Made by a program: the position numbers and the translations under genes. Below are positions 143-35,959 of a stretch of DNA of 50,422 bases, in pieces; position 1 is the stretch's first letter; each line of letters starts with the position of its first letter. The notes under the pieces are model-generated. The model worked only from the letters and a program-made list of their open reading frames with translations, had not been told where the DNA came from and made no database searches. Where the stretch lies: positions 1 to 50,422 of the forward strand of contig NW_014040358.1 in NCBI RefSeq assembly GCF_001186125.1. The letters are read 5' to 3'. This stretch comes from Sphaeroforma arctica JP610. Its lineage: Eukaryota.

Positions 143-668
143 AGTCTACACGATTCGCTCCCGGCAGTATTTCTCTGAACCTTTCGCGCATGGCACTAGC
201 GCGGGCCTAGTATTAGTTGATTTTGTAATAGCTTTCATCACAAGATTTACAAGAGGGCTGATTCAGGCATTCATCTAAATATTATTTTAAGAGAAACTAT
301 AGACCATAGCTGCGCATGTATGTAAATATTTTGAAAAAAGTCTATGGTAATCATGATGACGTATTTCAAATACAAAAATATGCATTGCGAATCATTTCAC
401 AGTTTTTGTGCGCCTATGGATGCACAGAGCCGGGAAAATAATCAAATCTACCGCCCAAACCTCCTGGCAAACCAATACATTCTACCCTTTCAGAAAAAAA
501 GCAGAGCCTCCTGAAAGTTGAACGCAAAAAGTTGTTTGTCTGTATGTACATATACATATTTGTATGTATATATGTCTATATATGTTTATAAACACATAAT
601 AATTATACCTATGTTAAAGTCAAATCCTGCTAGGAAGATTATTGCATCTACACTTATCACAATACATA

Positions 669-1206
669 ATGCCACTTGAGAACAGAGACGAGCAGAATGA
701 AGCACTGTTGCCGCGTGCTCGCTCGGGCAGCGGTAGAGATCACACAGACCACGTAGTATGTGGTGATGGGAAAGTTGGACTAGTCGCGTCTACTGCCACA
801 CTGTTGTTAGGTGTCCTAGGTGCAGGTCAACTCACACTGCCGTTTGCAGTGAATCAGGCTGGATTAGTACTTGCAGTAGCTTACCTCGCCCTGCTAGGCG
901 TATTGGCCGTCGTTGTGCTTAAAATGCTGATGGTGAGCTCGAAATATACGGGTCAAACGACCTACGCTGCCGTGCTGGAAGAAACATGTGGGCCGAAAGC
1001 AAGGCTTGTAGCGAACACGCTCCTAGGAATTTATGCGTGGGGAGGAGCAGTTAGGTAAATTAATTTCGAAATATTTATGAGCAGAAGCAGAGACACGCAC
1101 TCGCACACGCACAACTACACACACACACACATGTGCGCACGATCACACAAACACACACACGTGAGCACGATCACACACGCACACACACACATATATATGT
1201 ATATGT

Positions 1207-7649: not shown

Positions 7650-8870
7650 CAGATGCCCCCCAACTTTTTACTAGTGAGACTGTAAGGTGCTCTGGAGATT
7701 GATGGTTTTTACAAGGAAAAACTTGTCCATTAAGAATATAAAAATTCTGCCTCCATTAAATGTCCTTACGTATTATCTAATTTAGTATGCTATTACAGGA
7801 GTTCTCAGCCACGTTCGTCAGTATATCTTGGCCTGTGCTCTCGGCTGGCATCAACTTGGCTTGAAGAAATACTTCTCAACTATGCCTCTACAATCAAGTT
7901 TTGGGCAGAGCATGCTACAAAGTGGGATAAGTGGGAGTGGCCCCTGGTATCGGCGAACTTTGGTTAAAGATACCTGTCTCGTGTGCTTCGTGCTGCTCAC
8001 TGTTCGCGCGTCCCTGGCCTATGACCTTGTCGCTGTTCTTCGTTCTGTCTGTTTGCGTTTGTGCCGTATGCTTCGGCGATAAGGTGTAAGAACATCGACG
8101 TCCGCTATGACCCTCTCGTGTGCCCACGTTCTTTCTTCGACTGCCCAATGCTGTGGGTACCCTTGTGATAATTTCTGTCACCGCTGCAGTATGGAAGTAA
8201 ATTGTGTCTATTCATTTGATTATTAAGAGTGAATTTCTCCGCCCCATTTACAGTCTTATATAGCTCTATCAATTCATCATTGACTGAGTTCGGATATTTT
8301 GGAGCTTCTGCGCCATCTAGGTTGCAGACAAAGAACTCGTCGCCCTCTTTCTTGGCTTTTTTTTATGGACCTCCGTACCTCCGTAGGATGCCGTCATTTT
8401 GCTCATTTTGTACACCTTCGTATTGGATCATGGCTATGTCTCCTCCACGGAAAATATCGTATTATCTTTTAAACTTCCGACTATAAGCTGCTCGCACTTT
8501 ATCTTGGTATTGAGCAACACTGTTCCTTAGCTACGACCCAATGGTCATTTTTAGCTATTCCGATCGTTCTTGCCAAGTCACACCTGTGCTGTGTGCTTCA
8601 ACTCTTTTGTCATAATAAGTGAATTGGTTTGTCTTTGTCCGAAGCATGCATTAAATCGGAATCTGTGTCTGCGTGAGGATCGCAGGCTATGTTCTATCTG
8701 TACAAACGGTGTTCCTGAACACCAGTTGTCTGGGCTTTGTTTCCCAAATTTCCGTAGTACGAGTGTCAAGTCTCTGTGTGAGCGATCATTCGCTTCTAGT
8801 ACTTTGGGTGGATATGTTCGAGATACAATGTGTTGTGTCGAAGCTTGTGCTGTAAATATCGGTACGACCG
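7650..8870 (-). mobile_element. Degenerate Ty3/Gypsy 3' remnant (integrase core C-half, GPY/F-like region, polypurine tract)
   Basis: Minus-strand 'HIVSRTYPPKVLEANDRSHRDLTLVLRKF..PDNW..TPFVQ..' matches the integrase segment containing the catalytic E. It is followed by 'FRGGDIAMI...RRYGGP'. A G6 tract (plus-strand cccccc 7656-7661) lies at the distal end. Confidence 0.6.
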
Positions 8871-9136
8871 CGACAGTATAGTAGGACTTATGACGAATTG
8901 TATCGGTAGTATTTTGAAGTAAATACAGTTTGATAGTCGGATAATAAGACAGGTATACATTGTGAAATATCGGTATCCTAGAGGGATTCAAGTCTGAGAC
9001 AGTGCCTATAAAGAATCTCTCGGATACTAATTCGTTTTGTCTTCTTTGTTTGTACAACGAAATCAAGTATTCTTGATTTCGCTCCTCTATACCTAGAATG
9101 CTACTAAAATCTTATATTCGAAAGTGAATGAAGCTT

Positions 9137-9237
9137 AAGGGTTTTTAGGGTTTATGGTTTAGGGTTTTAGGGTTTAGGGTTTAAAGGGTTTAGGGTTTAG
9201 GGTTTTAGGGTTTAGGGTTTAAAGTTTTAGGGTTTAG
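9137..9237 (+). repeat. Interstitial telomere-like (TTTAGGG)n degenerate array
   Basis: About 13 units of tttaggg/ttttaggg/ttaaaggg. Confidence 0.85.
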
Positions 9238-10025
9238 AAAGTCCCTTCTGTCTCTAGAGACCCTTTATTACTCTAGTCTACTGTCTGGTCACTTATCTAG
9301 CTAAGGGGACCGCCATTCCAAGCTGAATATCGGCTATTCTGGTTGGCCGACGGGTGAAAGACTTAACAACGTTAATAGTCGCCCAAGTCAACCTGTTTCA
9401 GTGAACCACCTCGCTACTGAAATGTTTGTATGATACTGAAATATAGTGGGCCTTTAAATAGATCATATCTGATTTTGGTAATTGAAATGGTACTATAAAT
9501 AATAGTTTATGAATAAACGGACTTCTTAAAAGTGTACGTTTATAATCTATAATTCTATTGCGGATACTCATGATTTTTGAAGTGTAATGGGGAATGGACA
9601 GAATATCATTCACATATTCCGTGCCTTGTAAAGTAATCAAGAAAGCTTCTTCTGTCTGTAGAGGCCCTTCATTGCTCTAGTCAGGGTCTGATCACTTAAA
9701 TAGAAGGTCCGCCCTTCCAGGCTCAATATTGGCCTTTCTGGCTGGCCGACGTAGGAAAGACTTAGCAACGTTATTAGTCGTCAAATCAAACTGTTTCAGT
9801 GAGCTACCTCGTTACTGATGTGTTTATATGATACTGCAATATAGTGGTCCATTTAATAGGTATTTAAAAATATGTATTTAAAAATATCTAAGTTTAGTTT
9901 TGGAAAGGTATTTGTATATAAAAGTTTATGAAATACTGCCTATATTTTAATTCTATTGCGGATACCCGCTATTATTGAAGTGTAAGGACGTTGGAAAGAA
10001 TATCATTCTCATGTTCCGTGCCTTG
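9237..10025 (-). repeat. Diverged ~400-bp tandem duplication related (reverse strand) to the LTR of the 22674-30423 element
   Basis: Units start at 9237 and 9641 and both end in ccgtgccttg. 'tctggttggccgacgggtgaaagacttaacaacgttaatagtc...gaaccacctcgctactgaa' aligns with the reverse complement of LTR 22935-23025. Confidence 0.65.
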
Positions 10026-10879
10026 GCTCGTCCGTATTACGTGTGGACAGCCATGTTCACACCTGATTAGAACCCATGTTTTGACCACGTGCCTGTTGTG
10101 TTGTCCACCATTGGTCTGAGCATGCCATACCATGAGTGAACACTAAGCCTTAATAGGACCATATGTGTTCACCCCCAATTACATTCGTCTCCTGGGAACT
10201 CTGCTGATATCGATTACAGTCGGTGAAAATCCTTTTTGTATAATTTGTTGTATTTTTCGAACAAAGTACACACCCATCTGTGCACTTTCGTACATGTGTC
10301 TGTCTCTGTCTATTCGTCCCTTTTTGTATATTTTATTTCATTTCTCGAATATGGTACACCATCTGTATACTTTCTTACATGTGTTTATCTCTGTCTATTC
10401 CGATCATCAGCTTATATTTCTTTATCGTTTCTTCATAGGTGTAGTGGCTCACTGTGTGGTGAGATTTGCTCGTTCCTCATATGTGGTATGACTAACACTT
10501 CGAAGTCAAGAACTGTTCTTTCTGTTAGAAGTATAGTTACTTCAGACCCATTATTGTAGCCACTAGTATGGTTTCCAATGGTGTTTCAGCGCAAGTTTCT
10601 TTCTCAACTAACACTGAGTCTTTTGCCAGTAAGGACAGGAAGCGAGAAACAACGTTACATTTGGGTAATATGGCACAATTCAATTACTTTACCTAAGACC
10701 TGTTCTATGGGTTCCCACAGCGAGTTAGCCATAGCGAAGAAGAAAAAAAAGCCATTTTTGCGATGAGTTATCTCAATTTTGTGTGTAGTTTTTATTCGAG
10801 TGCGATTTATATGCTTTTTGAAATTGATCCACTGTGAACTTGACAAATCTCTTTCCCACCTCCTCTTATGCAGAGTTTG

Positions 10880-11165
10880 AGAGTGACTGATACGATTCGA
10901 CCAAAGGGTACAATAAACCTCTTCTCAAGCGCAAATACCTCAGCTAGGCAAAAGCCCTAGGCTGATGGATTCGCATTCAGTCTTTGTTCGTGGTTTGTGT
11001 TTCTTCACTATTCTCAAATTCTACTTGAGTATTTCTCTAATACCGGTATCATCTACCGGTTCTACCGCTATATTTCTGAAGACTCTAATATCAGGAATAT
11101 TGCATCCGGACCCAAAACTCGGAATTTGATCATCCTGGGTTTTGGAATCAGTTGGCTTTTCTGAG
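10880..11165 (-). repeat. Dispersed repeat copy A; inverted, diverged partner at 14350-14640
   Basis: Reverse complement 'ccaaaacccaggatgatcaaattccgagttttgg...tcagaaatatagcggtagaaccggta...cttgagaagagg' matches 14350-14640. Confidence 0.7.
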
Positions 11166-11299
11166 AATCTGGTACCTAAATGATACCCGTAGAATCTGGG
11201 GTGTGAAGTTTCCAACTTATGGCTGAGACTCATGTCGGAATATTTGTTCCTAAGTCAGCTAATCCGGATTATTGTGTGTATTTTATTTTGCTCTTTTAG

Positions 11300-13108: not shown

Positions 13109-13724
13109 CGATGTCGAAGTCCGGTAGCTGGATGATGGACTTGTATTTCTTCGCCATGTTTGTTATGTAATGCATCGGTATCTGTACGTGGCGAGTACGA
13201 TGTTTCTATCAAATGTATTTTGTCGTTTTATAACACACCAATACATATCTTCAAATCCACTCCCTGTATGTGAAACAAAGCTTTAGAATACTTTTAACTC
13301 TAAATGTGAATTTGTGTACTACTTCTATTCAGAATGCAATAAGACATACACTCGAAAATAACATACCCCAGCAAACTCTATGACAGTATAAGATACAGGT
13401 CTTGCCATCTTATGTAGAGGTCAAGCACTTTTGCACCTGGCGAGGACATTTCGGAATGATCCATCGAAGAGTTTGTGAAGATGGCAGAATGTGAAGAAGC
13501 TATGAATGCGTAAGTCTTAAAAGTTTAAACCCGTAAAGAATAAAAATTATTACCTCTAATCCTCACCTCCGATATATAAAGATGTACAACTATAATCTTC
13601 ATCTCTCTCTGATCATAACCTCTGATCCTCATCTCCGAGATATATAAATGTACAACTATAATCCTCATCACTAATCCCCACCTCTAGTCCTCGCCTCAGT
13701 AGCGACTTTCTCAACTTCTTCAAG

Positions 13725-14279
13725 TTGGCGCAATCCATGGACCCTAATATGTATGTACGCTCTCTGCGCGACAAAGATACTAACGTTTTAAGACGCGTTC
13801 TATGGATGACTAATACAATGCGTAAAAATTACCAAAAGTTTGGTCGTATAGTCAGTATGAATGCCCGCCATACGGGAAACGACAATTGGGGGTGGCAGAT
13901 ATTGATATTGGTAGGGCTGGGCAACGACGGGAAGATCAAGTACTTCGGTGCTATGCTTTTCTATCTGGAGACGAAGGAAATATTCAGATTTGTATTAGAT
14001 TCTCGTCAGAAGCTTATGGGCCAGAGGACGCCGTTGAAAACTCAGATAGTTTTTGTCGACAGTTCTTTAAACCAATCCGACATTAGAGAAGGTCAGTTCT
14101 ATTTCGCAGATATGTACCACACCAAGCAGAGTATCAGTAATTATCTTGGTAAGTACTTGAGTGCGAGGGTGGGATTAGCGGGGGACAAAGCTTTTTGCCA
14201 AAAACTCAAGAAAGGTGTCGCCATTACCTTTACATTGCTATCAACATACTGTCAGGAAAGAATGCTGCTACAGGGGTGA
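13725..14279 (+). mobile_element. Mutator-like (MULE/FAR1-type) transposase remnant
   Basis: 'LRRVLWMTNTMRKNYQKFGRIVSMNARH..NWGWQILILVGLGNDGKIKYFGAMLFYLETKEIFRFVL...IVFVD...DMYH' follows the MULE DDE domain layout. The first catalytic D appears as N and the C-terminal part is lost. Confidence 0.75.
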
Positions 14280-20718: not shown

Positions 20719-22673
20719 GATACATATATTTATATAGATATATCTTGTAAAACAATATATTTAGAGTTACTTCAAGAGGTACGTGCAGTAGGTACGTGTA
20801 TAGGTATTCATCTTTATCCACATATGTATTTTAGTTGTCGGACGATACTGTTACATAGATAGCCAGGCGTACGTGAAGGTATGAATATTTAGTAGAGGTG
20901 CCTATAACATTGTACGCGTATATGGGGAGTGAGAGGTGGATGTGCCAGATTAGTATATACGTGTTGTTACATATATATATATATCGATATAGTTGTGTAC
21001 TTAAAATATATCTACCTATACATGAATATGTATAAAGGCGGAAGCTAGATATACTTATTATATGGGTACAAAGGTTTATATGTACAACATGGTATTCCAG
21101 TTGACTTGTCTTGACACGAAACACATCTATATGCGTGAAAACAGGCATTGGACTATTAGGTCTCGTTTATAGCATTGCTTCTACGTGCTGCGGCATGATA
21201 CTGACACGCCCATGCGCACTATAAATGCACCGTACGGCATATCTCGCGAATTAACACCAACGAATATCTACGCCATACATATATACACGTACATATAAAT
21301 ATATACGTGTATGTGTTCATTGGATATATGTATACATGTACATGCTCGAGTATATATGTATACATACCAGCGTACATCTAGTCGAGTATGTTATATTCAA
21401 ATATATATATGCGGATAAGTACGCCCACATTATATATATAGGTGTGGGTGAATGTATGTATTTTTCAGGTCTAGACGTGAGGAGCGATCTGATTCGTTAG
21501 GAGGCGAGTCCGTTGAAGTAAACATAGGTGAATGGCTCTTGTAGATGAACGTGTTGATGTGCAAGCATATATCTTAGATGATATATATATATATATATAT
21601 ATACTATAGTTGTATGCGTACTTATACATGTACATGTGTGCGTGTGTTTAGGTAAATAAACAAACAGATGTGTGTACACCTATGTGATGATGTGGATGAG
21701 TAGGATAGATATACATGTACAAGAATAGGATATGAGCACCTGTCCCAGGAAGATCACCGTGCCTATTAGGGTAAGGGGGTTGCACGTTCTAGCTGTATGT
21801 TGCCGAACCGCATACTGTATCCGTAGGTGATACAAGAGTGTATCAATTATCGCCGAGCTATCCGCAGTACATATTAATGGTTGTGAAGCGACACATTGGT
21901 GTCGTGCTGTATTCCGGTGCAATGCCGCACTAAGGTGCGATGCAACATTGTGTGAAGTGATATGCTGCGCTGTAATGCCACATATCTATAGACTGTGAAA
22001 CACTGGCTCCACGTCGAGTCTCGTGGTGGAGAAAAGTCGCTTGGATTCATAGTATGTCACGAGGAGGCGGGTGTAGACTCCTTGTTGTCTATGGATATGA
22101 TCAACCAGTAGTCGTCGTTTGAGTTCCCACGGTGTATAGTTGCTATAGGTATTTCGGTTCCTGCGACCGTTGATGAGACGAGCTGCGGGAGAGCGCATTT
22201 GACTAGCAAGCGATCAATGAAAATAAATATGCACACGCGGTAGGAACTCTCGTCGCCCGATAAATATCGGTTGAACTACAGATGAGTTACATAGGCGTAA
22301 GGTAGCATTATTACACGGGGTAAGTTTCCGTGTGCGAGTTGACTCTTGTAACGCTATAATGTTACATCTTCATTCAATGTATCTGATGCGACCAGTCGAG
22401 ATAACTACAAGTCAGTTGATAGTGAGTCATGTGCCCTGCGGCAAATTGCTGCGATGGTTGACCAAAGTGTGTGTACTATTCAACATTCGAGTGACCTAAT
22501 AGCTGTCCGTCAACTCTCGTAGCTAGTGGCATCGATTGAGTTTATCATGTCTGTTTAGTATGCGAGCGAGAATTCTTGTAAACTCACGTGACCGGAAGAT
22601 ATCAATTGAGTTCACACAGACACCTGCGAGTGATTGGAGTTGTTTTAGATACAATCACGTGGCACACTCAGTA

Positions 22674-23442
22674 TGTAATAGCCGGGCCTCCACATTAGAC
22701 TCTATGATATAAACGTACTCTTAAGCAGTACGTAAACCATAAACGTACTCTTAATAGTACAAGGAACTTAAGTTTCCTAAATGGGTTTTAACGGTTTTAT
22801 TAATTAATACCTTTTCACTTTTACATATCAGATATTTGGACAAGGCCATTAAAAGGCCCCAGTAAAATACCAAACATATGATTTGGTCTAGTTCTATTGA
22901 TAGAACTATATTTACTTTCCAAATCTATTTATATCTGAATACTTCGGTAGTGAGATGGCTCAACCGAACATAAGTTTCTAGGACTATTAGCGTTGCTTAG
23001 TTTATCATCCGTTCAACCAACCAGATGTGCCAGTTGGATGAAGGCTAAGTCGGTAATTCTTGATAAGTGGCAAGTTATTGGTTAATTCAATAACTATGGA
23101 CATCAGGAGTTATTTTTCTTTTTTCTATTCTTTTTTTCTTCTAAAGATAGGATTTTATGAGTCTCTCGGATTCGCCCCAACGAAACATACCTTAGTTTCT
23201 AATAAAGTGACACCGAAACACCAAATAAAATCCCTTCGGCGAAAACAGTACTGAGAGGAATGTGTATTGGCAATGTCTCAGCCTCAAAATCCCTCAGAGT
23301 ATTGCTGTTTTCACGAGGCATACCTAACTTTACCAAAAGACTCGTTTCGTTTATTTACTTCGAATTTCACGATACTTAGACTTAACCTATGCGTTTAATT
23401 ACTCTAAGGCGTTAATATCGCCTTGATAGACCGAATCTTACC
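22674..23442 (+). repeat. 5' LTR
   Basis: tgtaatagccgggcctcc...gaccgaatcttacc; direct repeat of 29651-30423. Confidence 0.93.
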
Positions 23443-23544
23443 CATTTTAAAGTTAGCAAAGGTATTAACTACTTAGACTACTTGAACGTAAAGGTAGATT
23501 TTTTATTCCTTAAGAGAAAAAGACTGAAGCCATAAGTTAAGACT

Positions 23545-25939
23545 ATGACAAAAAAAGACAATAAACCTTCAAAGAAACGCAAGACTGAACGTAAGAAGAT
23601 GGAGAGAGAAGCCGCTAGCGCTGCCGCAGAAGCAACCGCCGCTGCTGCCAATGCGTTTAACCGCACCGTAGCCGAAGCACTTGTCTCTGACAATAACAGT
23701 CAACAGGATAATGCTTCGGATAAGGATGTAGCCGCTCCGATTAAGGAGACTACTTCTACAGACAGAGCCCGAGGGCCAACTATTGCTTCCACTTCAAAGC
23801 TTGCATTTACGAAACCAAGAAGTGAAACAAGGGACACGTCTCAAGACGCCCCAACCAATTCTTCTGACGAAACTCAGAAAGAAAAGTCCCCAATTATAGG
23901 GGACAAAGACGAATCTCAGAAGGTACCTATACCGGAACCAGAAGAGGAGGCAAGCTCAAGTGGCAAACCCGAATCTACATCCGAGACCACTGAACCAACG
24001 CGCATATGTAAGTTAATTACTGAAAACACTGATCTTAAGAATCAGTTAGCCACCCTTATGAAAGACTTGACTGTTGAACATGTAGATCGAATGTATAGAT
24101 CACGAAAACATACACAGCACTTACGCGAGCATGTTTCTCCGGGCATTACTGAATCCCTGCAGAAGTGAACAGAACGTCGACAGGCAATTCCGCCCGAAAA
24201 GCGTAAAGGCCTGAGCGCTACACCTGTGGCAGATGTGGCAGATGTGCTTAGCGTATCTATACCTTACGAGATACTACCACCAGAACTTCAGGTTAATTAC
24301 TCGCCTGTTCTAACACCCGGCTATGAGTCGCCCGTCCTTGAAGGTATTATAGACCCAGAGGCATGTAAAAATACTCCGCCACCTTTACTCAACTGGGATG
24401 ACAATCGTCGAAAACCAGTTAAGACTGGGTATGTTATCCACCCAAGAGTATAATACCAACTACTATCCGAGGAACAGAGCACCGAAAGGCCTAAACCATG
24501 GACTTTACAATGGGTAATAAACACCTCCGTAAACGTGTTAACGATGTCGAATTTAATCGCTTCGATCGCACAGCATTACACCAGCCCGCAGAGGATTTCC
24601 ACTCTGACGAGGTGACCGAACTTAATAAATCGGTCGACGATTACACCAATAAGATGGAAATCGCCCATGACGAGCACCGTGCTGATGACGTATCATATTT
24701 TGCTAATATGATCGCGATCAAGCAGAAGCGCATCGATCAGCTACTTCAGGCCCAACGTGGGCAAGACCACAGGGATACCCCCGCAGAGGATTTCCACTCT
24801 GACGAGGTGACCGAACTTAATATACCGGTCGACGATTACACCAATAAGATGGAAATCGCCCATGACGAGCACCGTGCTGATGACGTATCATATTTTGCTA
24901 ATATGATCGCGATCAAGCAGAAGCGCATCGATCAGCTACTTCAGGCCCAACGTGGGCAAGACCACAGGGATACCCAGAAGTACAAGTGACAGATCAGTCG
25001 ACTTAAGTCGAACTGGGATGCCAACAGCAAGCAGGTCGAGTTTATAAACAACCATGACCTCGACACGTTAACCTGTACGCTTAATGCGTTTACGGTCATG
25101 CTGGAGACGAATGATATCGCTCCAATGGATTTCCGCTTTAATGCAGTCGTTTGACCCTACAGGAACAAGTTACTTGATCTTGCAACGACACCAGCATGAG
25201 CTAGACATTTGTCGTGACTGGCCAGCTGTGTGTTGGTTGGATACGTTCTTATTAAGCAAGGTCATGCGAAGTCCAGGACTGAGTTCAATCTTAACTGAAC
25301 CAGTTGAGAATACTCCTATTCAGAGTTATATTCTGAAACTCGATGCTGACCTTAAACGTCCAGATATAACAAAGGACAAGGCACAGCGATGGCACGAGTT
25401 CCTGGTTATGCATGTTTTATGTAAGAACATAGGGAACAACGACCGTGAAAGTCTGTACACCGAGTTGCAACGTAAATACGCTACTGAGGCTCGAGACAAG
25501 GGACATGAAACAAAGTTTCATCTATCCCGACTTACGTGGGAACAGTTTTATGATACTGTATCCACTCTTTTCCCGCATACCGAGTAACCTCGAAGGGAAA
25601 GGTGGTAAATAAGAAAAATCGGACACCTCTCACGCCAGACGTCAGGTGATAAACCTCGTCAGACGCGTCCTAACCAGACACGTGCTCGTGACTCCACTCA
25701 ATCAACGCAACCCAATGTACGGGCACGCGCGGAGGCGAAGGACAAGGAACCTTCATTCAAGGAGATTAAGAAATGTGCCGACACACAGTGTGGGTATGAC
25801 ATGTACCAATTGACCCCTAACGGTTATTGGAATGGCAGACATGCACCCACACTTTCTTACTAAGTGTGACAAGTGTGAGAAGACCAATGGCTATCACGCC
25901 AAGTCTTGTGACAGAAAGCCCGACATTAAGTTGGAGTGA
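23545..25939 (+). pseudogene. gag: gag region (fragmented) with C-terminal Cys/His knuckles
   Basis: Run of same-strand ORF pieces (23545-24168, 24226-24453, 24498-24989, 25084-25587) between the 5' LTR and protease. 'KCDKCEKTNGYHAKSC' occurs at ~25862-25909. Confidence 0.65.
24585..24974 (+). repeat. In-frame 195-bp (65-aa) tandem duplication inside gag
   Basis: Units 24585-24779 and 24780-24974, differing only around NKS/NIP. Confidence 0.95.
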
Positions 25940-25989
25940 AAGTATCACCAGGTACAATCGTTACAAAGGAAATACAACGACTCGTTAGA

Positions 25990-26338
25990 CGAGCGTGTAA
26001 TAATACCTGTATATTGCAATTGAGATAAAGTCCTTGCATTGATTGATCCTGGTTCAGAAATTTCATGCATATCCGACCGCTTTGCATTAATGAAAGACAT
26101 TGAAAGGCGCACTCAAACTACTCACCTAATCTTAGCAGATGACAAAACTTCTAAGTGTGATACCATGGTCACAGATGTTAAAATCTCCCTGGCCGATGAT
26201 AGAAATATCACTACCCAAGCTGTGATAGTTAAGATGTCACAGAAGTACGACTTAATAGTCGGAATGAGTGACTTACTCACTCTAGGTATAACCGTAACTG
26301 GTTTACCAAATAACATAGATCCATTAAGGGATCAATAG
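25990..26338 (+). pseudogene. Retropepsin-type aspartic protease
   Basis: 'VLALIDPGSEISCIS...LILAD...YDLIVGMSDLLTLG'. Confidence 0.85.
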
Positions 26339-26479
26339 ACGATATCTGTCTGAAACCATATAAGCCCCCGTCAGACACAGTCAAGGCATTAATACCTGAC
26401 TTTGCGGACAAAATTATGGATCTGATTCTAGTAAATAGGAAGATAAAGATCACAGATTGGGCAAATTTTTGTTTTCGCA

Positions 26480-27244
26480 TTGGCCAGGCGAGTCCTGCAG
26501 AGACTCAACGAACAAAATTTCAAGATTAACGAGACGAAATGTCACTTCGCCATGAGCGAAATACAGCTCTTAAGCTACCGTATATCTGGGGAAGGTATTA
26601 AAATCGACCCCGGTAAGGTGGAACACCTGTTAGATTGGCGAACACCAACTACAGGAAGAGATGTGAACAGCATGTGTGGGTTTGTAAACTTCTTTTCAGA
26701 TGGAGTACCACATTTGGCTGATTATCTTAAACCCTTTAAACACTTAAGATGTCATAAAGGCAAACTAGGAGACTTGTGGACTAAAGAGTTTGATGACACA
26801 TTTAAAGCGCTCAAGAACGCAGTCCAACAATCCCCTGTTGTACAAGGACCAGTCGATGGCGTGCCTTTTGAAATAGCAACGGACGCATCAGACTTAGCAC
26901 TCGGAGGTGTACTATACCAGGATATAGATACTAAACCTAGGTATATGCAATTCTTTAGCCGAGCAATGAATGCATCACAGTTGAATTATCCAACTGTGAA
27001 GCAAGAGCTACTAGCCATAGTAGCAGCTTTAACACACTTCCGCGAATACTTATACGGAACAGCTTTTACGCTGATGTGTGATCAGAAGTCCCTTCAATAT
27101 ATGAAGGAAATGAAGCCAGACTCTCAATTACTGAGCCGATGGCATGATACACTATCAAAGTTTCATTTTGATATCAAACATCTACCAGGGATACATAACC
27201 ATTTACCGGATATTTTATCACGCTTTGTACCGTACTTTAATTAA
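26480..27244 (+). pseudogene. pol: Reverse transcriptase C-terminal/thumb plus Ty3-type RNase H
   Basis: 'VLQRLNEQNFKINETKCHF', 'CGFVNFF', 'IATDASDLALGGVLYQ', 'NYPTVKQELLAIV', 'CDQKSL', 'NHLPDILSR'. No YxDD-containing core is present upstream. Confidence 0.92.
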
Positions 27245-27680
27245 ATCCGTACGTGAGTTACTAGCCACTGATTGGAAATGTAACCCCAGGTGGTTTGAAC
27301 TGGCTCAAAAGATATTTGGGCCACACATAGTTGACATGTTTGCTGCACATCATAATGCACAACTTAAGAATTACAGGACTTTAAATCATCCTATGGGAGA
27401 CTCCTTTCAACTAGACCTCCCCGAACATAATGCGTGGGCCAATCCACCATGTCAGTTAATTGTCCAACTACTAAATTATGTTCATATACACAAAGCTACC
27501 ATCACGTTGTGTTGCCCATTACGGAGTAAAGATCTATGGCTCAATACATTAATAAGCATGATACAATGCGAGCCAATATATTTAGATAGGGAAGTAGATA
27601 CTTTCCTATATCAGGGTACCCGAGCCGTCCAGAAGACGCCCTGAAGACATATAGGTCCCATTGGAACAACCAAATGAACC
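27245..27680 (+). pseudogene. DNA N6-adenine methyltransferase domain (DIRS1/phage Dam-like) within pol
   Basis: 'DWKCNPRWFELAQKIFGPHIVDMFAAHHNAQLKNY...DSF...NAWANPPCQLIVQLL...ITLCCP....W'. The SAM-binding DxFA..N motif and catalytic NPPx (27441-27452) are both present. Confidence 0.85.
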
Positions 27681-28079
27681 CCTTCTGAGATCTTCCTTAA
27701 CAAGGTCAAAGAATATGAGATTCCACTCTCAACTAAATTGAACGTTAAGCAGTTCAAAGGCAACACAGCATTTGATACAATCTACTAATGACACTACAGT
27801 TAAGAAGCGCCAGTCGCTAGCTAGGACTCTGTTTAATAACATAAAGTCCAAGACCGAAGTCTTTCAACCTCTATTTTTAAAGGGATTAATGAAAGATAAT
27901 CCTGAAACATATACACATATAATGCGACTATTAAATAAGTCAGGTGTATCAAACGCACACGAGCGCACTTATGACGCTCATGCAAAAGCAGGACAGGAGT
28001 ATGGAAACACTACAGACTTAGAGACCACGCAAGTGGATTCTCAACACTCTACCTTTATTCTGGAAGAGCAGAATGATGA

Positions 28080-29473
28080 AAACATTCTTGCTTGGCTGAA
28101 GCAAAGTCATAAGCTGAAGCACCAGAACGTAGTAGAAGCACTTAAAGATGCTAAGCGACATGGGATCGCGCACCCTAAGCTGGCAACTTTAGTTGACAGA
28201 GTATATCAGTCATGCACAGACTGTGATCTCAATCAGATCAAGCGCTATGGCTTCGCACCACTTAAGAGTGTGACTGAAGATGTTCCATGGCGCAGGGTCA
28301 TCATTGATCTGGTTGACCTGCCTACGTCCGAGCACACAGGCGACCGTTACATATGCCATTTCTTTGATGTGGCGTCACGGTATAACTTGCTCTATCCATT
28401 TAAGGCCAGAGTACGCAGACCGTGGCAGAATTATGTTGCCAAGTCTTTGCTGACCACGGGTGGCCAGGTATAATGTGTACTGATAACGGTAGCGAGTTCT
28501 GCGATGACGTAATATAATCGTTAGTACTCGTATCAGGCATGTGCCATAAAAGGGGTGTACCATATAAACCGCAAACACAAGGCGCGAATGAAACGCGCCA
28601 TAGAAGACTTAAGTTCTTCTTACGTACTGCATTAACGGATGATGCAGATGATTGACCGTACCACCTTAAGTGGGTACAAACACAAATGAACGAGTGTGCT
28701 GATCCGGTTACTGGTACAACACCCACTCACTATTTTCGTGGCAGATAAAGTGAGTTACCAATACCTTTTAACAAGGACGAACCTAATCACCATGGGCTAC
28801 CATGGTTTGAGAAGGAACAACGTATTTATAACGTTGTATATCCTTGCTTGCGAGGAACACGCAATATTGCCTTATTAAAAAGGCAAAATTGATGGAATTC
28901 TACCAAAAAAGATAGCAGAGTATCAGGTTGGAGACAGAGTTAACATCCGTCAACGTAATTCCGATGCTACTGTATTAACATCTAAATGGATAGGACCATA
29001 TATAATCTCTGTAGCTGACGTTAAAAGTGAAACCTACCAGGTTAATAACCCCGACGGTTCCCAGTGTTTTAAATATAGGCACTAGTCGGATTCAGACTAC
29101 TGAGATTATTCTCGCAAGTAGACATGACTCTAATGCCCCTCTTGATCGTTCTGAATTTAAAGACATTATATGGAGAACGGATAAGGGAGGCTATACATAC
29201 TATCGTACACGCTTTATAGACGGTACAATCGCTGAGTTGACTTCAGATGCTTTCGATAATCAAGACTATTTAAAAGCCTTTAATCGAAAATGGCGTAAAC
29301 GCCTTTTTAAGTCACAAACTGAAAAAGATAGCATGTTTCCATCGTCTGAAGGCACGAAAGTTAAAACTTACCCGCCTACAGCATTTATCCCGAGCTTTAA
29401 TGCTCACCCTTCATATGTGCTTAAGACACTGAAGCGTAAGAAACGTCCAGTCGACCATCACGGACCTACTTGA
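28080..29473 (+). pseudogene. Integrase (HHCC, DDE core, GPY/F, chromodomain-like tail), frameshifted
   Basis: 'HKLKH...CTDC', 'PWRRVIIDLV', 'TDNGSEF', 'PYKPQTQGANE', 'YQVGDRV...KWIGPY', 'FKDIIWRTDKGGYTYYRTRFIDG'. Confidence 0.9.
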
Positions 29474-29650
29474 CCTAAGCCCAAAACTCAAAGGGTGACC
29501 GAGATCGCTTAACTTCTCCGCCTGAGAAACATTAATTATACGTTATGCTACTTAATGTTTTCGACCCGTTTTCCTTTCTCGCTTTTTGACCCATAATCAG
29601 CTTGAGTGAGCAACTTGCTTCTCCTGGGTCTCAAAGCTGGGTGGGGGCTG

Positions 29651-30423
29651 TGTAATAGCCGGGCCTCCACATTAGACTCTATGTTCTAAACGTACTCTTA
29701 AGCAGTACGTAAACTGTAAACGTACTCTTAATAGTACAAGGAACTTAAGTTTCCTAAACGGGTTTTAACGGTTTTATTAATTAATACTTTTTCCATTTTA
29801 CATATCAGATATTTGGACAAGGACATTAAAAGGCCCCAGTAAAATACCAAACATAAGATTTGGTCTAGTTTTATTAATAGAACTATATTTACTTTTCAAA
29901 TCTATTTATATCTGAATACTTCGGTAGCGAGATGGCTCAACAGAACATAGATTTCTAAGGACTATTAGCGTTGCTTAGTTTATCCTCCGTTCAGCCAACC
30001 AGATGTGCCAGTCTGATGAAAGCTAAGTTGGTAATTCTTGATAAGTGGCAAGTTAATGGTTAATGCAATAACTATGGACATCAGGAGTATTTTTCTTTTT
30101 CTTCTTCTTTTTTTCCTTCTTTTAAAGATAGGATTTTATGAGTCTCTCGGATTCGCCCCAACGAAACATGCCATAGTTTCTAATAGAGCAACAACGAAAC
30201 ACTAAATAAATTCCCTTCGGCGAAAACAGTACTGAGAGGAATATATATAGGCAATGTCTCAGCCTCAAAATCCCTCAGAGTATTGCTGTTTTCACGAGGC
30301 ATACCTAACTTTACCAAAAGACTCATTTCGTTTATTTACTTCGGATTTCACGATGCTTAGACTTAACCTACGCGTTTAATTACTCTAAGGCGTTAATATC
30401 GCTTTGATAGACTGAATCGTACA
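29651..30423 (+). repeat. 3' LTR
   Basis: tgtaatagcc...gactgaatcgtaca, preceded by the polypurine tract at 29639-29647. Confidence 0.93.
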
Positions 30424-31391
30424 CGTATATGGGGAATGAGCTCTCGTAGCCTGAGAATCAACGATTGAGTGCGAAGCGGCACACAAACGGTATTCTCCTG
30501 CTGATTAATATATAGGATAACAGCATCAGAGTCCGTGTACTCTGTTCTCGAAGATCGAACTCCAGCTCGGAAGTATAAATCAGCAACGCTAGCTCCCAAG
30601 AATAAACCAGCCACTATATCTCCCGAGTATAAACCAGCCACTCTAGCTCCCGAGTATAAACCAGCCACTCTAGCTCCCGAGTATAAACCAGTCGCTCTAG
30701 CTCCCGAGTATAGACCAGCCACTCTAGCTCCCGAGTATAAACCAGCCACTCGAGCTCTTGAGTATAACACAGCGATATCTACTAGACAATTCCTTGGGCT
30801 CTGTTTGGAATCATCGGGTTAACTGGTTTGCACGGTTTCTGCTATTGGTAGTTTTTCTCCGACACAGGTATAGTTCTATACTGTACTTGCCAGAACGCAT
30901 ATATGGTGTCACTAATCAACAGTTGTCTCAAGTATTCAGAACGACGGATTACTCGAGACGTACACCTCGGGTCCTCTAGCTCTCAGAGGTAAAATGCCAG
31001 CACGATGCTCTAGCTCTCGAGGATAATGCCAACACACTGCTCTAGCTCTCGAGGATAATGCCAGCGGATCCCTCTTGTTCGTGGAGATAAAATTAGCGTC
31101 CCAGATATTTGTATATCTTCATTCCTGAAGCTCGCACACGTTTCGTGCTTCAGCTTGGGGGGGTTGTGGTCAGATATACGATTTAGGGTTATTAGGGTTT
31201 TTGTGATCAGATATATGATTTAGGGTTATTAGGGTCTATTTGTGGATCGGTCATAAACCCAGTTTAGGGTTTTGATCCGATTACGCACATGCGCTAATTG
31301 ACCAGATGTTAATCGAGTAATGTTCAATAAATATCCAACGACTCACCTCTGATGAAGGGAGTACGTTGAGATATAGTTATTATTTACCACA
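30424..31391 (+). mobile_element. 3' portion of a 'tgtggtcaga'-family LTR element (3' internal repeats, PPT, LTR 31165-31391)
   Basis: G7 tract at 31157-31163, then tgtggtcaga...tttaccaca. Termini and AATAAA-hairpin layout are the same as the LTR at 17277. Confidence 0.75.
30563..30770 (+). repeat. 27-bp tandem repeat (~7 units)
   Basis: Unit ccagccactctagctcccgagtataaa. Confidence 0.92.
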
Positions 31392-31800
31392 GGATGCTTA
31401 ATAAGAATTAGTTTAGCCTCGCTCAATCAAGATGGGGTCCATTTATTATTGATATGTTCGCCGCAGAACATAACAAACAGGCTTTTGATTTTAGGTCGTT
31501 GACTCATCCTAAAGGTGATGCCTTTCAACTTGACTTATCAAAGCATAATGCGTGGGCTAAATCACCTGGACAACTTATCGCACAGTTGTTAAATTATGTT
31601 AATATTACTAAATCTACCACTACGCTGTGTTGTCCCTTACGTGGCTCCGACCCATGGATACGTGATTTAAATAATATGATACAAGACGAGCCTATCTATG
31701 TCAACCGTGAAACCGACACGTTCTTGTATCAGAGATCCTATTCTATTAAGAAGACACCTTGGAAACACACCATCGTTTGTCGCATCGGTCCTGCAGGTAC
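31392..31800 (+). pseudogene. DNA N6-adenine methyltransferase domain, copy 2 (catalytic NPP degenerated to KSP)
   Basis: Collinear with 27270-27680 along its whole length. Confidence 0.8.
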
Positions 31801-33820
31801 CACTAAGTGCAAGCCCTCAACCGAGTTCTTAGCTAAACTAGAGGAGTCTAAGGAGTTTGAACAAAAGCTCAAGACTCATACAACACATGCATCCAACAAG
31901 AATGCGGTCGAGGTGATGCCGATTGAGACGGCATTAGATCATAAAAAACATGGAACTAGCTAAGGCCATGGATCAAAGACTCAAAGCTCTAAGGGAACCT
32001 GAAGCTCGCACTCAACTACTTAATGCGCTGCTTAAAGAACAGGCAGGAGTTGTGAAACAACTGAAGAAGATACTTCAACAATATAATGTTGTTAATTACG
32101 TATCTCAGGAGTCTACCCCTTCTGATACTGAAGTTGCCCTATCTAACGGGACTATGGTTCATCCAGCCAGCGTTACACAGAATCTGACTGACTTAGAGGA
32201 GCTCGAGAGTAAAGTTAAAATAATACATAATTTAACTCATCGAGCATATGAACATACTTATAAGATGGCTATTCGTGCAGGGCTTGATCACCCGGCGTCG
32301 AAAGAAACGATACGTAATGTATACCGACGCTGTACTGATTGTGAAAAGAATCAGATCAAGCGCTACGGTTGGGCACCCCTAAAAAGTGTGACAGATGACC
32401 AACCGATGCGCCGAGTCCAAGTCGATTTGGTTAAACTCCCGCGATCCAGGCACACTGGCGATGTATATATCTGTCATTTCTTATGTGTAGCTTCGGGCTA
32501 TAACTTGCTTTATGCAATACCAAACAAACGCCCGCAAACAGTGGCAGATTTATGCTATCACGTCATTAATGACTTCGGTTTCCCCCGAGTATGATAACGG
32601 TAGTGAGTTTTGTACCGACGTAATGGAGACACATATACTCGTATCAGGCATGACCCATAGGCGTAGTGTTCCTTATAAACCTCAAACGCAGGGTGCAAAT
32701 GAGACACGTCATAGAGAACTAAAGAAGCTATTGCGTACTGCACTAGATGACGTTGAGGATATGTGGCCTTATCATTTAAAATGGGTTCAGACTCAAATGA
32801 ATAACTGCATGAATCTTCAAACTGGAACACTCCCGTTTTACTACTTATTTGGCCGCTATAGTGAATTACAAGCAACGTTTGACAAAACTGCCCCGAGAAA
32901 CACGTTACTCCATGGCTACAAAAGTCGAGCATGCAGAACGTTGTTTACCCTTGTTTACTCGAGCACAAAAATCGTGTCCTACTTAAAGCGTATAACCGAT
33001 GGATTAACATTAAAAACATTGTTCAGTTCAAAGTTGGCGATTATGTTAACATTATAAATCGCAATGCCAACGTTTCCGAACTCTCTTCTAAGACAATTGG
33101 GCCTTCTGTTATTTACTACCATGATGAGAAGAGTGATACTTACGAAGTGAATAACATAGATGGTACTAGCGCAACTAATCTAGGCACTCACCGTATCCCT
33201 ACCTCCGAACTCTTATTCGCTCGCTCATTTGACTCTGATGTCCCAGTTATGGAGTCACAAGTCAAAGATATAATTGACAAAACATTCGAAGACGGCTACA
33301 CTTACTACAAGACCCGTTTTATGGATGGGACAGTAGCTTGGCTAACCTCCGATGCATTTCGGGAATTTTGCGACTTCCTTCGAATTTTTAATAAGAAAAG
33401 GAACAAGTGTCTACATAAGAACACACGAGATAAACGGAAAGGGTTTCCTCAGGTGACTACAAACCCTGATGGATATGAAATTCCCTATTTGCCACATACT
33501 TCCTATGTGACTAAACTTTCTGATCTGCTTACCAACAGAGCAGAACTTCGAACTTACTTTCTAATGAAGAACAACCTTTGGCTATTACCTTATCAAGTAA
33601 TAAACGTAAGGCGCCTGCATCGGAAATGGTTACTGGACCAAATACTAAACGACATAGAGTACAACATGAGTCTTGAACTCGTACATATAGGCACATACTT
33701 ATTCGATAAGTCATGACCGAAACCGGGTTACTTTGGTTTTCGCTTTACGAACTAGATTGTACCTTCACGTACGTCCGTAGTCCTAAAAGCTACTGGGGGC
33801 TATGTAAAAATACGGCCTCC
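31392..33820 (+). mobile_element. Second, diverged, 5'-truncated copy of the methyltransferase-carrying Gypsy family (MTase-integrase-chromo-like, PPT, start of 3' LTR at 33803)
   Basis: '(W)MLNKN*FSLAQSRWGPFIIDMFAAEHN...NAWAKSPGQLIAQLLNYV', 'HNLTH..CTDC', 'RVQVDLV', 'DNGSEF', 'PQTQGANE', 'FKVGDYV', 'VKDIIDKTFEDGYTYY'. It ends ggggg-cta-tgtaaaaatacggcctcc, resembling the first element's LTR start. Confidence 0.88.
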
Positions 33821-35959
33821 GGTCAGTCTAAAATATCAAGATCAAATGAGATAACACACTGGTTTTTATTTGCATTTAAATTTTTTTAATACAATTTCTT
33901 TTTCCAATATTTCCAAAGTGTTCTAAATTCACTTTGATGGCTCCAATAGCCTGAGTATTTGGTATGACTCATTTACTTGTACCTATTTGAGACGATAGTA
34001 GATGTAGGATACTATAAACTAAATTTTATAATCTCTGAACTACTATTTATAGGTTTTGGTCTTCCCGCCAATCTCCAAAATCCAATAAGTCTTTTTCATT
34101 TTTTAACCTTTCTTCAGATGGAACTTTATTTATATTAGTTAATGTATTAACTTGACTTACATTCTTATATCTATCTACAAATTAGACGTGTGGTCATGAA
34201 CACTTAGTACTTCTAGTGAAAATTATTCAATAAAGAACTGCTAGAGGTACGTTCTGTGTGATAAAGGATATTAAGGCTCTTACCAACAGGCAGTCCCGAT
34301 CATTCTTGCACAAGCTACCACTGCTAAATCCTAACTGACTTAAATTGTATCTTAGTTTATACAACATAGTTTAAAACATTGAAATATCCATCGAAGTTTA
34401 CACGGATGAGGGTACGGTGGTTGTTCTACATGCTGGAGAAAAGATCCAAGGTGTTCGTGTAGAGTCCAGATACCGTGGAAATCGTGGCGCTCCTGTAATT
34501 GCTGGAGATGGTCAGGGCCAATGGGCTGCAGTTTCGGGCCTACTAGGATGCGTCGAATCAATTGTTGAATGCAGGTAAAGTGGCTGGTGGTGAATTTGTG
34601 GCCACCGGGGCAGACAGGGCAGAGACAGTCGTCGGTGCGGTAGTCGAGCAATGTGAACATGTACGTATTCGTTACAATCATAGCACAGAGCCGGATGATC
34701 AGTGTAGGCTCGGAGCAGTGGTTGAAGCTGTCGTGTCTGGCTTTGTCCATTTTTTGAGGTTGGCGGGTTACCCATGACCATTTGGTAGTAGTAATGGTGC
34801 CAGGCCATTGTCGCGATCTTCTTGTTAGACCAGCGTTTTGTCGAGTTCTTCCTGATGTCGTCACAGCGTAGGCGGAGGGCTACATAATCGGGTATACCCC
34901 GTGGTTTTGTGTACAATTTTCAGCGCAGTGGTGGTTTGTCGTGGGCCCAGGCGGGTTACGTCAGAGGGGCGAGTGGGTTTGTGCTGGCCAATGTTTGGGA
35001 AACTTAGCGTATTTAGTGGTCGTGATGATAGCTGCTGCTTGAGTGAGTGCTGAGTATAGCGCTCGAACAGGGAGTCCAGCACATCCTTTCATATAGGCGG
35101 AGCCCAGGCAATAATATTTAGGCCATATATAGCAGTGGATGGGATGAATGTTTTGAACAGCACAAGTCGGTTGCGGGAGTGTCACCAGCTGAAGCCATGA
35201 AAGCCATAAGCGCGGAAAGAGCACAGCCGACACCCAGAAACAATACTGCAACCAAGGATTCCATAGGTCTGGCGAGGTTGATCCCTGGTATTCCGTGAGA
35301 GAGTAGGGAACCCCAGACATTTGGAGAGTTTATGCTTGGCATATGTAGGCGCCATCTTCAGGGCAAGGTAACGTGTGTTCCATGGTGCTTCTGTGAGCGT
35401 CGGCGTGATAAGCTCACCATTTATACGGAGGGTCCCGCCGCGTGACATCAGGAGAGGGTTCGGTATCCGGTGGAACCAAGTACGGGTTTGTAGAGTTGAA
35501 TAGGGCCTCAAAGTAGCCAGCGAGGGTAGCGCCTGTGTCATCGGTACCCGGTATGCAGGGTTGGCGCGGAGACCGTCGTTGGTACGCAATATCTTTGAAC
35601 TTTTGAGCATTGCTTTGGGCGATCAGACGTGGGCGGAGCAAGTTGTTTTGGCAGCCACTGAACCCAAGGTCTGTTTAAGTCATAGTAGAACCCTCCAAAC
35701 ATTTGTGGGATAGTGGCATAGCGCCAGATGTGGTCGAGGATTTGTAGCAGCCCTTTCGCTGGTCCATGTAAAGTGAGATACGACCGTAGTAGGATCTGAT
35801 GCGCCCGGATTTTGGCTTGGAATAGGCGCACGCTAGATTTGTTGCGTAGGTGATACAGTCGATGGCGATATTGGTTATATCCATGGGAGGGGAGGCGTTG
35901 GTCCAGAGGCGGCGGCATTGCTGGCATTTGTTGGGGCCGACGGATTCGATTTGTGGGAA

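What the first reader, a model, noticed from the sequence alone, without database searches (positions are those of the whole stretch)
27245..27680. Ty3/Gypsy LTR retrotransposon whose pol carries a DNA N6-adenine methyltransferase between RNase H and integrase
Seen: directly after the RNase H end motif 'NHLPDILSR' comes 'DW.CNPRWF....FGPHIVDMFAAHHNAQL..Y...DSF....WANPP..LI..LL......TLCCP....W', and only then the HHCC/DDE integrase, all inside a normal direct-LTR/PPT element. Known: this motif string is the Dam/phage-like adenine MTase domain that follows RNase H in DIRS1-type tyrosine-recombinase retrotransposons. Canonical Ty3/Gypsy pol (PR-RT-RH-IN) has no such domain. Inference: this is a Gypsy lineage that gained a DIRS-type MTase at the same RH-adjacent position. 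It may mark its own cDNA or insertion site with 6mA, to escape silencing or to mimic active chromatin. This copy is decayed (frameshift near 27240, NPPC, stop at 27642).
Basis: partly seen in the sequence, partly recalled or inferred. Interest (0 to 1): 0.92.

Follow-up and report, generated by a model that had tools for sequence, protein, structure and literature searches.

The report
Decayed Gypsy retrotransposon carrying Dam-like methyltransferase
This is a broken copy of a Gypsy-type jumping gene whose family carries an adenine-methyltransferase domain between RNase H and integrase; the domain likely marks new copies with methyl-adenine, but this kind of element, likely this very lineage, was described in a 2026 preprint.

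Summary
Observation confirmed. A 7.75-kb direct-LTR element (22674-30423; LTRs 93% identical, 4-bp target duplication) carries a Dam-like domain (Pfam PF05869, E 6.5e-5, under the curated cut-off) between RNase H and a DDE integrase. This copy is dead: most of RT is deleted, with a frameshift, NPPC and stops. The domain is integral: two intact relatives encode RT-RH-MT-IN in one ORF, other copies read NPPW without the stop, and a confident model (pLDDT 94.6) matches phage N6-adenine methyltransferases and PCIF1. It is not new: bioRxiv 10.64898/2026.05.21.726589 describes these 'DAM-LTRs'. The domain groups (100/97) with Abeoforma whisleri and Sphaeroforma arctica proteins, the preprint's ichthyosporean lineage; the host is likely Sphaeroforma. 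This scan has found the class on other DNA (23 notes, at least 3 genomes). Activity is unproven: the preprint's E. coli assay was negative. Two small additions: the lineage keeps a divergent chromodomain-like tail that the preprint calls absent, and the closest solved fold is the RNA cap methyltransferase PCIF1, leaving an RNA substrate open.

The parts
22670..22673 (+). 5' copy of a 4-bp target-site duplication (AGTA; the 3' copy at 30424-30427 reads CGTA)
   Evidence: an empty-site joint 22670->30425 skips 7754 nt = 7750 + 4, one contig each in runs X6 and X14
22674..23442 (+). 5' LTR (begins TGTAA)
   Evidence: 71 contigs of run X1 run on into unlike sequence behind 23441
23545..25950 (+). 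broken ORFs at the gag position, with a 195-nt tandem duplication (24585-24975); gag identity inferred from position only
   Evidence: no Pfam match at a meaningful score
25955..26335 (+). aspartyl protease
   Evidence: PF13650 E 2.5e-4; 48% to P0002
26323..27238 (+). RT remnant with an internal deletion of about 185 residues at about 26480-26493, then RT C-terminus and Ty3-type RNase H
   Evidence: P0001 residues 138 and 323 adjoin in the window; PF17917 E 3.6e-30; loose ends at 26465/26476 in other copies
27243..27680 (+). Dam-like N6-adenine methyltransferase domain (motifs VDMFA and NPPC); out of frame with RNase H here, stop at 27642-27644
   Evidence: PF05869 E 6.5e-5; 70% and 63% identical to intact P0001 and P0002; model of the P0001 domain pLDDT 94.6; fold matches
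27742..28275 (+). poorly conserved linker, then integrase zinc finger (H near 28105, CTDC 28213)
28276..28745 (+). DDE integrase core, one frameshift near 28405 and two stops
   Evidence: local integrase profile, E 4e-10 and 4e-40
29150..29299 (+). degenerate chromodomain-like block at the integrase C-terminus (link to chromodomains is transitive, through other members of the clade)
29633..29650 (+). G-rich polypurine-tract-like sequence
   Evidence: seen in the sequence
29651..30423 (+). 3' LTR (TGTAA...TACA)
31394..33673 (+). second, 5'-truncated element of a sister family: MT (motif decayed to KSPG) then integrase; probable LTR start at 33803
   Evidence: 73-93% to P0002; 89% over 90 residues to S. 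arctica SARC_08637; rve E 8.8e-4
7986..11256 (-). third, heavily decayed MT-integrase remnant of a more distant family
   Evidence: pieces 25-72% identical to P0011, whose MT groups with S. arctica SARC_09892

Best explanation
This is a dead copy of a Ty3/Gypsy LTR retrotransposon family whose Pol carries an integral Dam-like N6-adenine methyltransferase domain between RNase H and integrase, and in intact copies the domain likely methylates adenines on the element's own new cDNA or RNA:DNA intermediate so that insertions would keep the host's active-chromatin 6mA mark. Shown here: the architecture, the single ORF in relatives, the methyltransferase fold, the NPP[WF] motif in the lineage, selection on the domain, and kinship with Abeoforma and Sphaeroforma elements. 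Inferred: that Pol is packaged and cut as in other Ty3/Gypsy elements (established knowledge), that the small domain, which has no target-recognition part, gets its substrate by being tethered to RT and integrase, that it is catalytically active, and that the host enzyme AMT1 then maintains the mark (the preprint's model). I put the architecture and lineage at about 0.95 and 0.9, and the DNA/hybrid self-marking mechanism at about 0.5.
For: Intact single ORFs RT-RH-Dam-IN, with protease ahead: P0001 (1376 aa, NPPW; its protease end aligns to the window's) and P0002 (1400 aa, CPPW). 17 of the 150 listed profile hits carry the domain followed by an integrase in one protein. In DNA runs other copies read Trp where this copy has Cys (63,626 of 64,148 summed depth in X6; 512.9 of 512.9 in X16) and no stop at 27642-27644 (all depth in both); summed depth does not dip over the domain. 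No inverted repeats in 22000-34500. The domain is as conserved as its neighbours between P0001 and P0002: MT 69%, RH 72%, RT 61%, integrase core 57%, linker 31%; between the two window copies synonymous sites are saturated (pS 0.79) while pN is 0.24. 15 of the 16 non-window rows of the clade keep NPP[WF]. Model pLDDT 94.6 matches phage N6-adenine methyltransferases (E 1e-8 to 1e-6, TM 0.68-0.76) and PCIF1 (Z 10.9, rmsd 2.8, 137 aligned; E. coli Dam Z 8.2). RT-RH is closest to Ty3 among solved structures (E 3e-71) and the RT tree splits 16 LTR-type from 14 DIRS-like rows (100/100). The preprint reports more 6mA and more expression on DAM-LTR insertions than on other LTRs in S. arctica and A. 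whisleri.
Against: No methylation activity has been shown: the preprint's expression of DIRS, DAM-LTR and adintovirus domains in dam-minus E. coli gave no 6mA increase. The Pfam scores of this family are under the curated cut-off (23.1, 26.2, 22.9 against 28.1). P0002, an intact ORF, has CPPW. Iyer et al. judged DIRS1 copies of the domain likely inactive and placed them with PCIF1 (PMC4738411, passage). The 6mA enrichment is a correlation and could follow from transcription or insertion-site choice. Sequence searches against solved structures found nothing for the domain. The host is inferred from relatives, not shown.
Confidence: 0.5

Rival explanations
1. The domain is a PCIF1-type enzyme that N6-methylates RNA (the element's genomic RNA, for instance near its cap, or the RNA strand of the RT intermediate), not DNA; the 6mA seen on insertions would be a downstream effect of host AMT1.
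For: Best solved-structure match is PCIF1/CAPAM by both aligners (Foldseek E 1.2e-4; Z 10.9 against 8.8 for the next row); ranks 2-9 are mostly rRNA adenine methyltransferases. Iyer et al. put DIRS1 domains in the PCIF1 clade. A DIRS-like hit has a weak PCIF1 family match (P0017, E 5e-4). It would explain the negative DNA assay in E. coli; the preprint's main text does not mention PCIF1.
Against: Predicted phage proteins annotated as DNA N6-adenine methyltransferases match better (E 1e-8, TM about 0.75) than viral PCIF1-like ones (E 6e-5, TM 0.67), so the PDB ranking may only reflect which relatives were solved. The model of 145 residues covers only part of the 482-residue PCIF1 chain. A shared fold shows no substrate.
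Confidence: 0.2
2. The domain is kept as a non-catalytic module (nucleic-acid or SAM binding, particle assembly, or spacing between RNase H and integrase).
For: Negative E. coli assay; CPPW in intact P0002; Iyer et al.'s view; earlier scan notes report DAM-LTRs with lost catalytic motifs but conserved domains (unchecked).
Against: NPP[WF] kept in 15 of 16 non-window rows of the clade, and the D-x-F/M/I-A motif as well; family copies read NPPW.
Confidence: 0.25
3. The segment is a nested DIRS fragment or an assembly chimera, not part of the Gypsy element.
For: The RH and MT frames are offset in this copy; most of the 150 profile hits with an RT look DIRS-like.
Against: Intact one-ORF relatives, three MT-integrase elements of different families in this window, continuous depth, no termini of its own, MT and RT trees both group it with LTR-type elements.
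Confidence: 0.01

Closest known systems
Ichthyosporean DAM-LTR lineage (Fernandez-Moreno et al., bioRxiv 10.64898/2026.05.21.726589; whole main text read, supplements not seen)
   Same: Ty3/Gypsy organisation with a DAM domain; the domain groups at 100/97 with three A. whisleri proteins and S. arctica SARC_09892; no Pfam chromodomain match in this family; NPP triplet.
   Different: The preprint says the lineage lacks chromodomains; a profile comparison finds a divergent chromodomain in 10 other members of the clade and a degenerate counterpart in this family. Whether this exact family is among the preprint's sequences could not be checked. This copy is dead.
DIRS1-type tyrosine-recombinase retrotransposons with an MT domain (PMC3783388, passages)
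   Same: Same PF05869 domain directly after RNase H in Pol.
   Different: Here there is a protease, a DDE integrase, direct LTRs and a target duplication; no inverted terminal repeats; RT groups apart from DIRS-like RTs.
KnitGypsy-Dnmt3 of Klebsormidium (PMC5890265, passages)
   Same: A Gypsy Pol that has taken up a DNA methyltransferase domain.
   Different: That is a cytosine C5 enzyme of unrelated origin.
PCIF1/CAPAM cap adenosine N6-methyltransferase and phage PF05869 N6-adenine methyltransferases
   Same: Closest folds.
   Different: 11-22% identity; stand-alone enzymes; substrate of the retrotransposon domain unknown.

Membership tests
Ty3/Gypsy LTR retrotransposon | Direct LTRs with TG...CA ends, polypurine tract, short target duplication | tested here: met
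   (5' LTR ends TTACC, one letter off; 4-bp duplication with one mismatch)
Ty3/Gypsy LTR retrotransposon | Pol order PR-RT-RH-IN with a DDE integrase | tested here: met
   MT lies between RH and IN
Ty3/Gypsy LTR retrotransposon | RT of Ty3/Gypsy type | tested here: met
   by proxy of intact P0001 (RT mostly deleted here): best solved match Ty3, E 3e-71; apart from DIRS-like RTs 100/100; no MT-free Gypsy references were in the tree
DAM-LTR (preprint) | PF05869-type domain inside the Pol of an integrase-encoding LTR element | tested here: met
   note that the window copy's E 6.5e-5 would miss the preprint's 1e-5 threshold while P0001 (7.4e-6) passes, if their database size was comparable
Ichthyosporean DAM-LTR lineage | DAM domain in one supported clade with Abeoforma and Sphaeroforma elements | tested here: met
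   18-row clade, 100/97 (SH-aLRT 99 in the larger quick tree); RT clade of 12 rows with two Abeoforma proteins, 95/98; names
Ichthyosporean DAM-LTR lineage | Ichthyosporean host | tested here: inconclusive
   second element in the window is 89% identical over 90 residues to S. arctica SARC_08637, which points to Sphaeroforma; no host gene was placed
Ichthyosporean DAM-LTR lineage | No chromodomain (as the preprint states) | tested here: inconclusive
   no Pfam Chromo match in P0001, P0002 or the window, but a chromodomain-like block is present across the clade (97.7%) and this family's block matches it (95.7%) while not matching chromodomains directly (1.1%)
DIRS1 retrotransposon | Inverted terminal repeats; no protease or DDE integrase | tested here: not met
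DIRS1 retrotransposon | Tyrosine recombinase ORF | tested here: not met
   no such Pfam match in the element's ORFs scanned or in P0001/P0002
Active DNA N6-adenine methyltransferase | SAM-dependent fold with NPP[YFW] motif | tested here: met
   in the family; not in this copy (NPPC, stop)
Active DNA N6-adenine methyltransferase | Methyl transfer to adenine in DNA | not testable with these tools
   the preprint's E. coli test of representatives was negative

The most novel reading that the evidence does not exclude
The retrotransposon 'DAM' domain is a PCIF1-type RNA methyltransferase that marks the element's own RNA genome or RT intermediate rather than DNA, which would explain the failed DNA assay; and the ichthyosporean lineage is a chromovirus-like line with an eroded chromodomain, so that it may share one capture of the domain with chromodomain-bearing DAM-LTRs.
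Probability: 0.2. Interest if true: 0.6.

Novelty: already known. Interest (0 to 1): 0.18.

Why it matters
If the domain is active, a transposon would be writing the host's own 'active gene' DNA mark onto its new copies, a direct way to exploit host epigenetics. That idea is already in print as a preprint and awaits a biochemical test. This window adds a dead example, two intact natural relatives with differing motifs (NPPW and CPPW) that suit such a test, and two points the preprint's main text does not make: the chromodomain-like tail and the PCIF1 fold link.

Tried and rejected
No whole genome is held for this window, so copies could not be counted genome-wide; public runs were laid instead. 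Sequence and profile searches of the domain against solved structures: 0 hits. Homologue search at 70-254 residues with the 4-row alignment: 0 of 685 candidates. Related loci in metagenome and viral contigs: none confirmed. Phage records by tblastn: only weak matches (E 0.07-0.1) to two Pasteurella phage DNA methyltransferases, among 8 records. First structure model from a 4-row alignment was poor (pLDDT 46) and was not used. The ESM Atlas gave mostly unnamed clusters and one with Dam on 11% of members: a lead only; two other Atlas requests did not complete. Expression: no RNA holder listed; runs guessed to be RNA show low-depth contigs over the domain in X18 and none in X19; not used as evidence either way. 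Single-contig joints that skip parts of the domain have unknown sequence between the sides and were not read as deletions. The 68-row tree did not finish its careful search; a 39-row careful tree was built instead, leaving out 28 of 44 DIRS-like rows, one duplicate (P0158) and one long branch (P0089), and adding P0015; hits that could not be classed as LTR or DIRS-like were left out of both. The RT tree used 14 DIRS-like rows of those available. The trees hold only the best 150 of 2014 hits and are unrooted, so they do not show the donor or the number of captures. A telomere-motif literature search for the host gave nothing useful. No tRNA gene in the window and no tRNA primer site was identified.

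Full report
Observation. RNase H (PF17917, E 3.6e-30) ends at 27238; in the next frame a 128-residue stretch from 27258 runs to TGA at 27642-27644 and matches Dam PF05869 at E 6.5e-5, 23.1 bits, under the curated cut-off of 28.1, with weaker matches to phage methyltransferase profiles. A zinc finger and a DDE core follow. The LTRs (22674-23442, 29651-30423) are 93% identical (K2P 0.077). Contigs in two runs join 22670 to 30425, a skip of 7754 bases, which equals the 7750-base element plus a 4-base duplication. The copy is dead: besides the frameshift, NPPC and stop, about 185 residues of RT are deleted and the integrase is broken.

Integral or nested. A search among longer proteins returned 2 hits of 64 candidates, P0001 and P0002, 70% and 63% identical to the domain. 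Both are single ORFs with RT, RNase H, Dam and integrase in that order, behind a protease (Pfam match in P0002; P0001 begins within it). In two DNA runs, other copies read Trp at the NPPC position and no stop at 27642-27644 (63,626 of 64,148 and 512.9 of 512.9 summed depth; 81,407 of 81,407 and 236.9 of 236.9). The frameshift is less well covered by contigs (one base fewer in 84.8 of 88.6 depth in X16, one contig; 1,084 of 10,850 in X6, where other contigs end at that place). Summed depth does not dip over the domain (depth is not a copy number). There are no inverted repeats in 22000-34500. The domain is under selection: 69% identity between P0001 and P0002 against 72% for RNase H, 61% for RT, 57% for the integrase core and 31% for the linker; pN 0.24 with saturated pS 0.79 between the two window copies. 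Two further MT-integrase elements of other families lie in the window (31394-33673; 7986-11256 on the minus strand).

Fold. With 82 aligned sequences the P0001 domain folds at pLDDT 94.6. Among predicted viral structures the best matches are phage DNA N6-adenine methyltransferases (E 1e-8 to 1e-6, TM 0.68-0.76), then PCIF1-like giant-virus proteins (E 6e-5). Among solved structures the best is PCIF1/CAPAM (E 1.2e-4; Z 10.9, rmsd 2.8, 137 aligned), ahead of rRNA adenine methyltransferases (Z 8.3-8.8) and E. coli Dam (Z 8.2). The domain is an N6-adenine-type methyltransferase fold; its substrate is not shown by this.

Kinship. A profile search found 2014 relatives, of which the best 150 were listed. 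With local profiles, 17 of these 150 carry the domain followed by an integrase; most others with an RT look DIRS-like, ending soon after the domain (the DIRS label is my inference from architecture). The top hits outside this family include three Abeoforma whisleri proteins; S. arctica SARC_09892 and SARC_08637 are also hits, and the latter is 89% identical over 90 residues to the second element in the window. In a careful 39-row tree the window domains, P0001, P0002, the Abeoforma rows and SARC_09892 lie in one 18-row group (100/97); the RT tree gives the matching group of 12 (95/98) and separates LTR-type from DIRS-like RTs (100/100). The RT-RH of P0001 is closest to Ty3 among solved structures. 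The host is therefore likely Sphaeroforma or a close ichthyosporean; this is inferred, and no host gene was placed.

What is known. A full-text search found bioRxiv 10.64898/2026.05.21.726589, whose whole main text I read; its supplements were not seen and may list this family. It claims the first report of DAM domains in non-DIRS LTR elements, defines five lineages, among them an ichthyosporean one in Pirum, Abeoforma and S. arctica, finds more 6mA and expression on DAM-LTR insertions in S. arctica and A. whisleri, proposes methylation of RNA-DNA intermediates followed by AMT1 maintenance, and reports no activity in E. coli. The term DAM-LTR occurs in that paper only (other searches). Passages read elsewhere: the DIRS MT domain (PMC3783388; PMC6338049), Gypsy-Dnmt3 (PMC5890265), the PCIF1 clade and the view that DIRS copies are inactive (PMC4738411), and absence of 5mC in Sphaeroforma (PMC11244446). 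Earlier notes of this scan report the class in at least 3 other genomes (seen after I had found the preprint); none matched by sequence.

Mechanism. Most likely the domain travels with RT and integrase in the particle and methylates adenines on the new cDNA or hybrid, so that insertions start with the 6mA mark of active genes. Architecture, fold, motif and selection are shown; activity, substrate and benefit are inferred, about 0.5. Rivals: a non-catalytic module (0.25), an RNA methyltransferase of PCIF1 type (0.2), a nested fragment (0.01).

Two additions. First, the preprint says the ichthyosporean lineage lacks chromodomains, but the integrase tails of 10 other members of the clade match a chromodomain profile from 5 DAM-LTRs at 97.7% (30 column shuffles: at most 2.5%), and two of them have sub-threshold Pfam Chromo matches (E 0.001, 0.055). 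This family's block matches those members (95.7%) but not chromodomains directly (1.1%), so here it is a degenerate relic. The block was picked by eye before the test. Second, the PCIF1 link is absent from the preprint's main text.

Verdict. Real, integral and well supported, but already described; interest 0.18.

Noticed in passing
window 31394-33900 (+): Second, 5'-truncated MT-integrase element of a sister family (about 80% to P0002, 89% to S. arctica SARC_08637); a G-rich tract and TGTAA at 33803 resemble the first element's 3' LTR start.
   Followed up: partly
window 7986-11256 (-): Third, heavily decayed MT-integrase remnant of the P0011/SARC_09892 family, interrupted around 8850-9980 where a TTTAGGG tract (9125-9236) lies.
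   Followed up: partly
window 29150-29299 and 33255-33407 (+): Degenerate chromodomain-like block at the integrase C-terminus; clearer in other members of the clade.
   Followed up: yes
window 27297-27444: Contigs in runs X14 and X6 go back from about 27444 to 27297 with two extra letters, which would be a 150-nt in-frame tandem duplication of the first half of the methyltransferase domain in some other copies.
   Followed up: no
window 26476-27188: In two runs guessed to be RNA (X18, X19) the deepest contig over RNase H stops at 27188 and continues into the reverse complement of the LTR end: probably one rearranged copy.
   Followed up: no
window 23458-23468 and 22804-22814: An 11-base stretch 15 bases behind the 5' LTR is complementary to a stretch inside the LTR; no tRNA primer site was seen, so self-priming as in Tf1-type elements (recalled) is possible, but chance is not excluded.
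   Followed up: no
P0019, P0071: Two long relatives have the methyltransferase domain ahead of RT; P0019 also has an endonuclease/exonuclease/phosphatase domain before it: another arrangement.
   Followed up: no
window 618-1058 (+), 13662-14279 (+), 47494-47838 (-): Amino-acid transporter exon (PF01490), a ZSWIM/RNase H-like ORF (PF21056, possibly a MULE-type transposon piece) and a TMEM170-like exon.
   Followed up: no
window 30532-30800: 27-base tandem repeat just beyond the 3' LTR, in sequence that is itself repeated in the runs laid.
   Followed up: no
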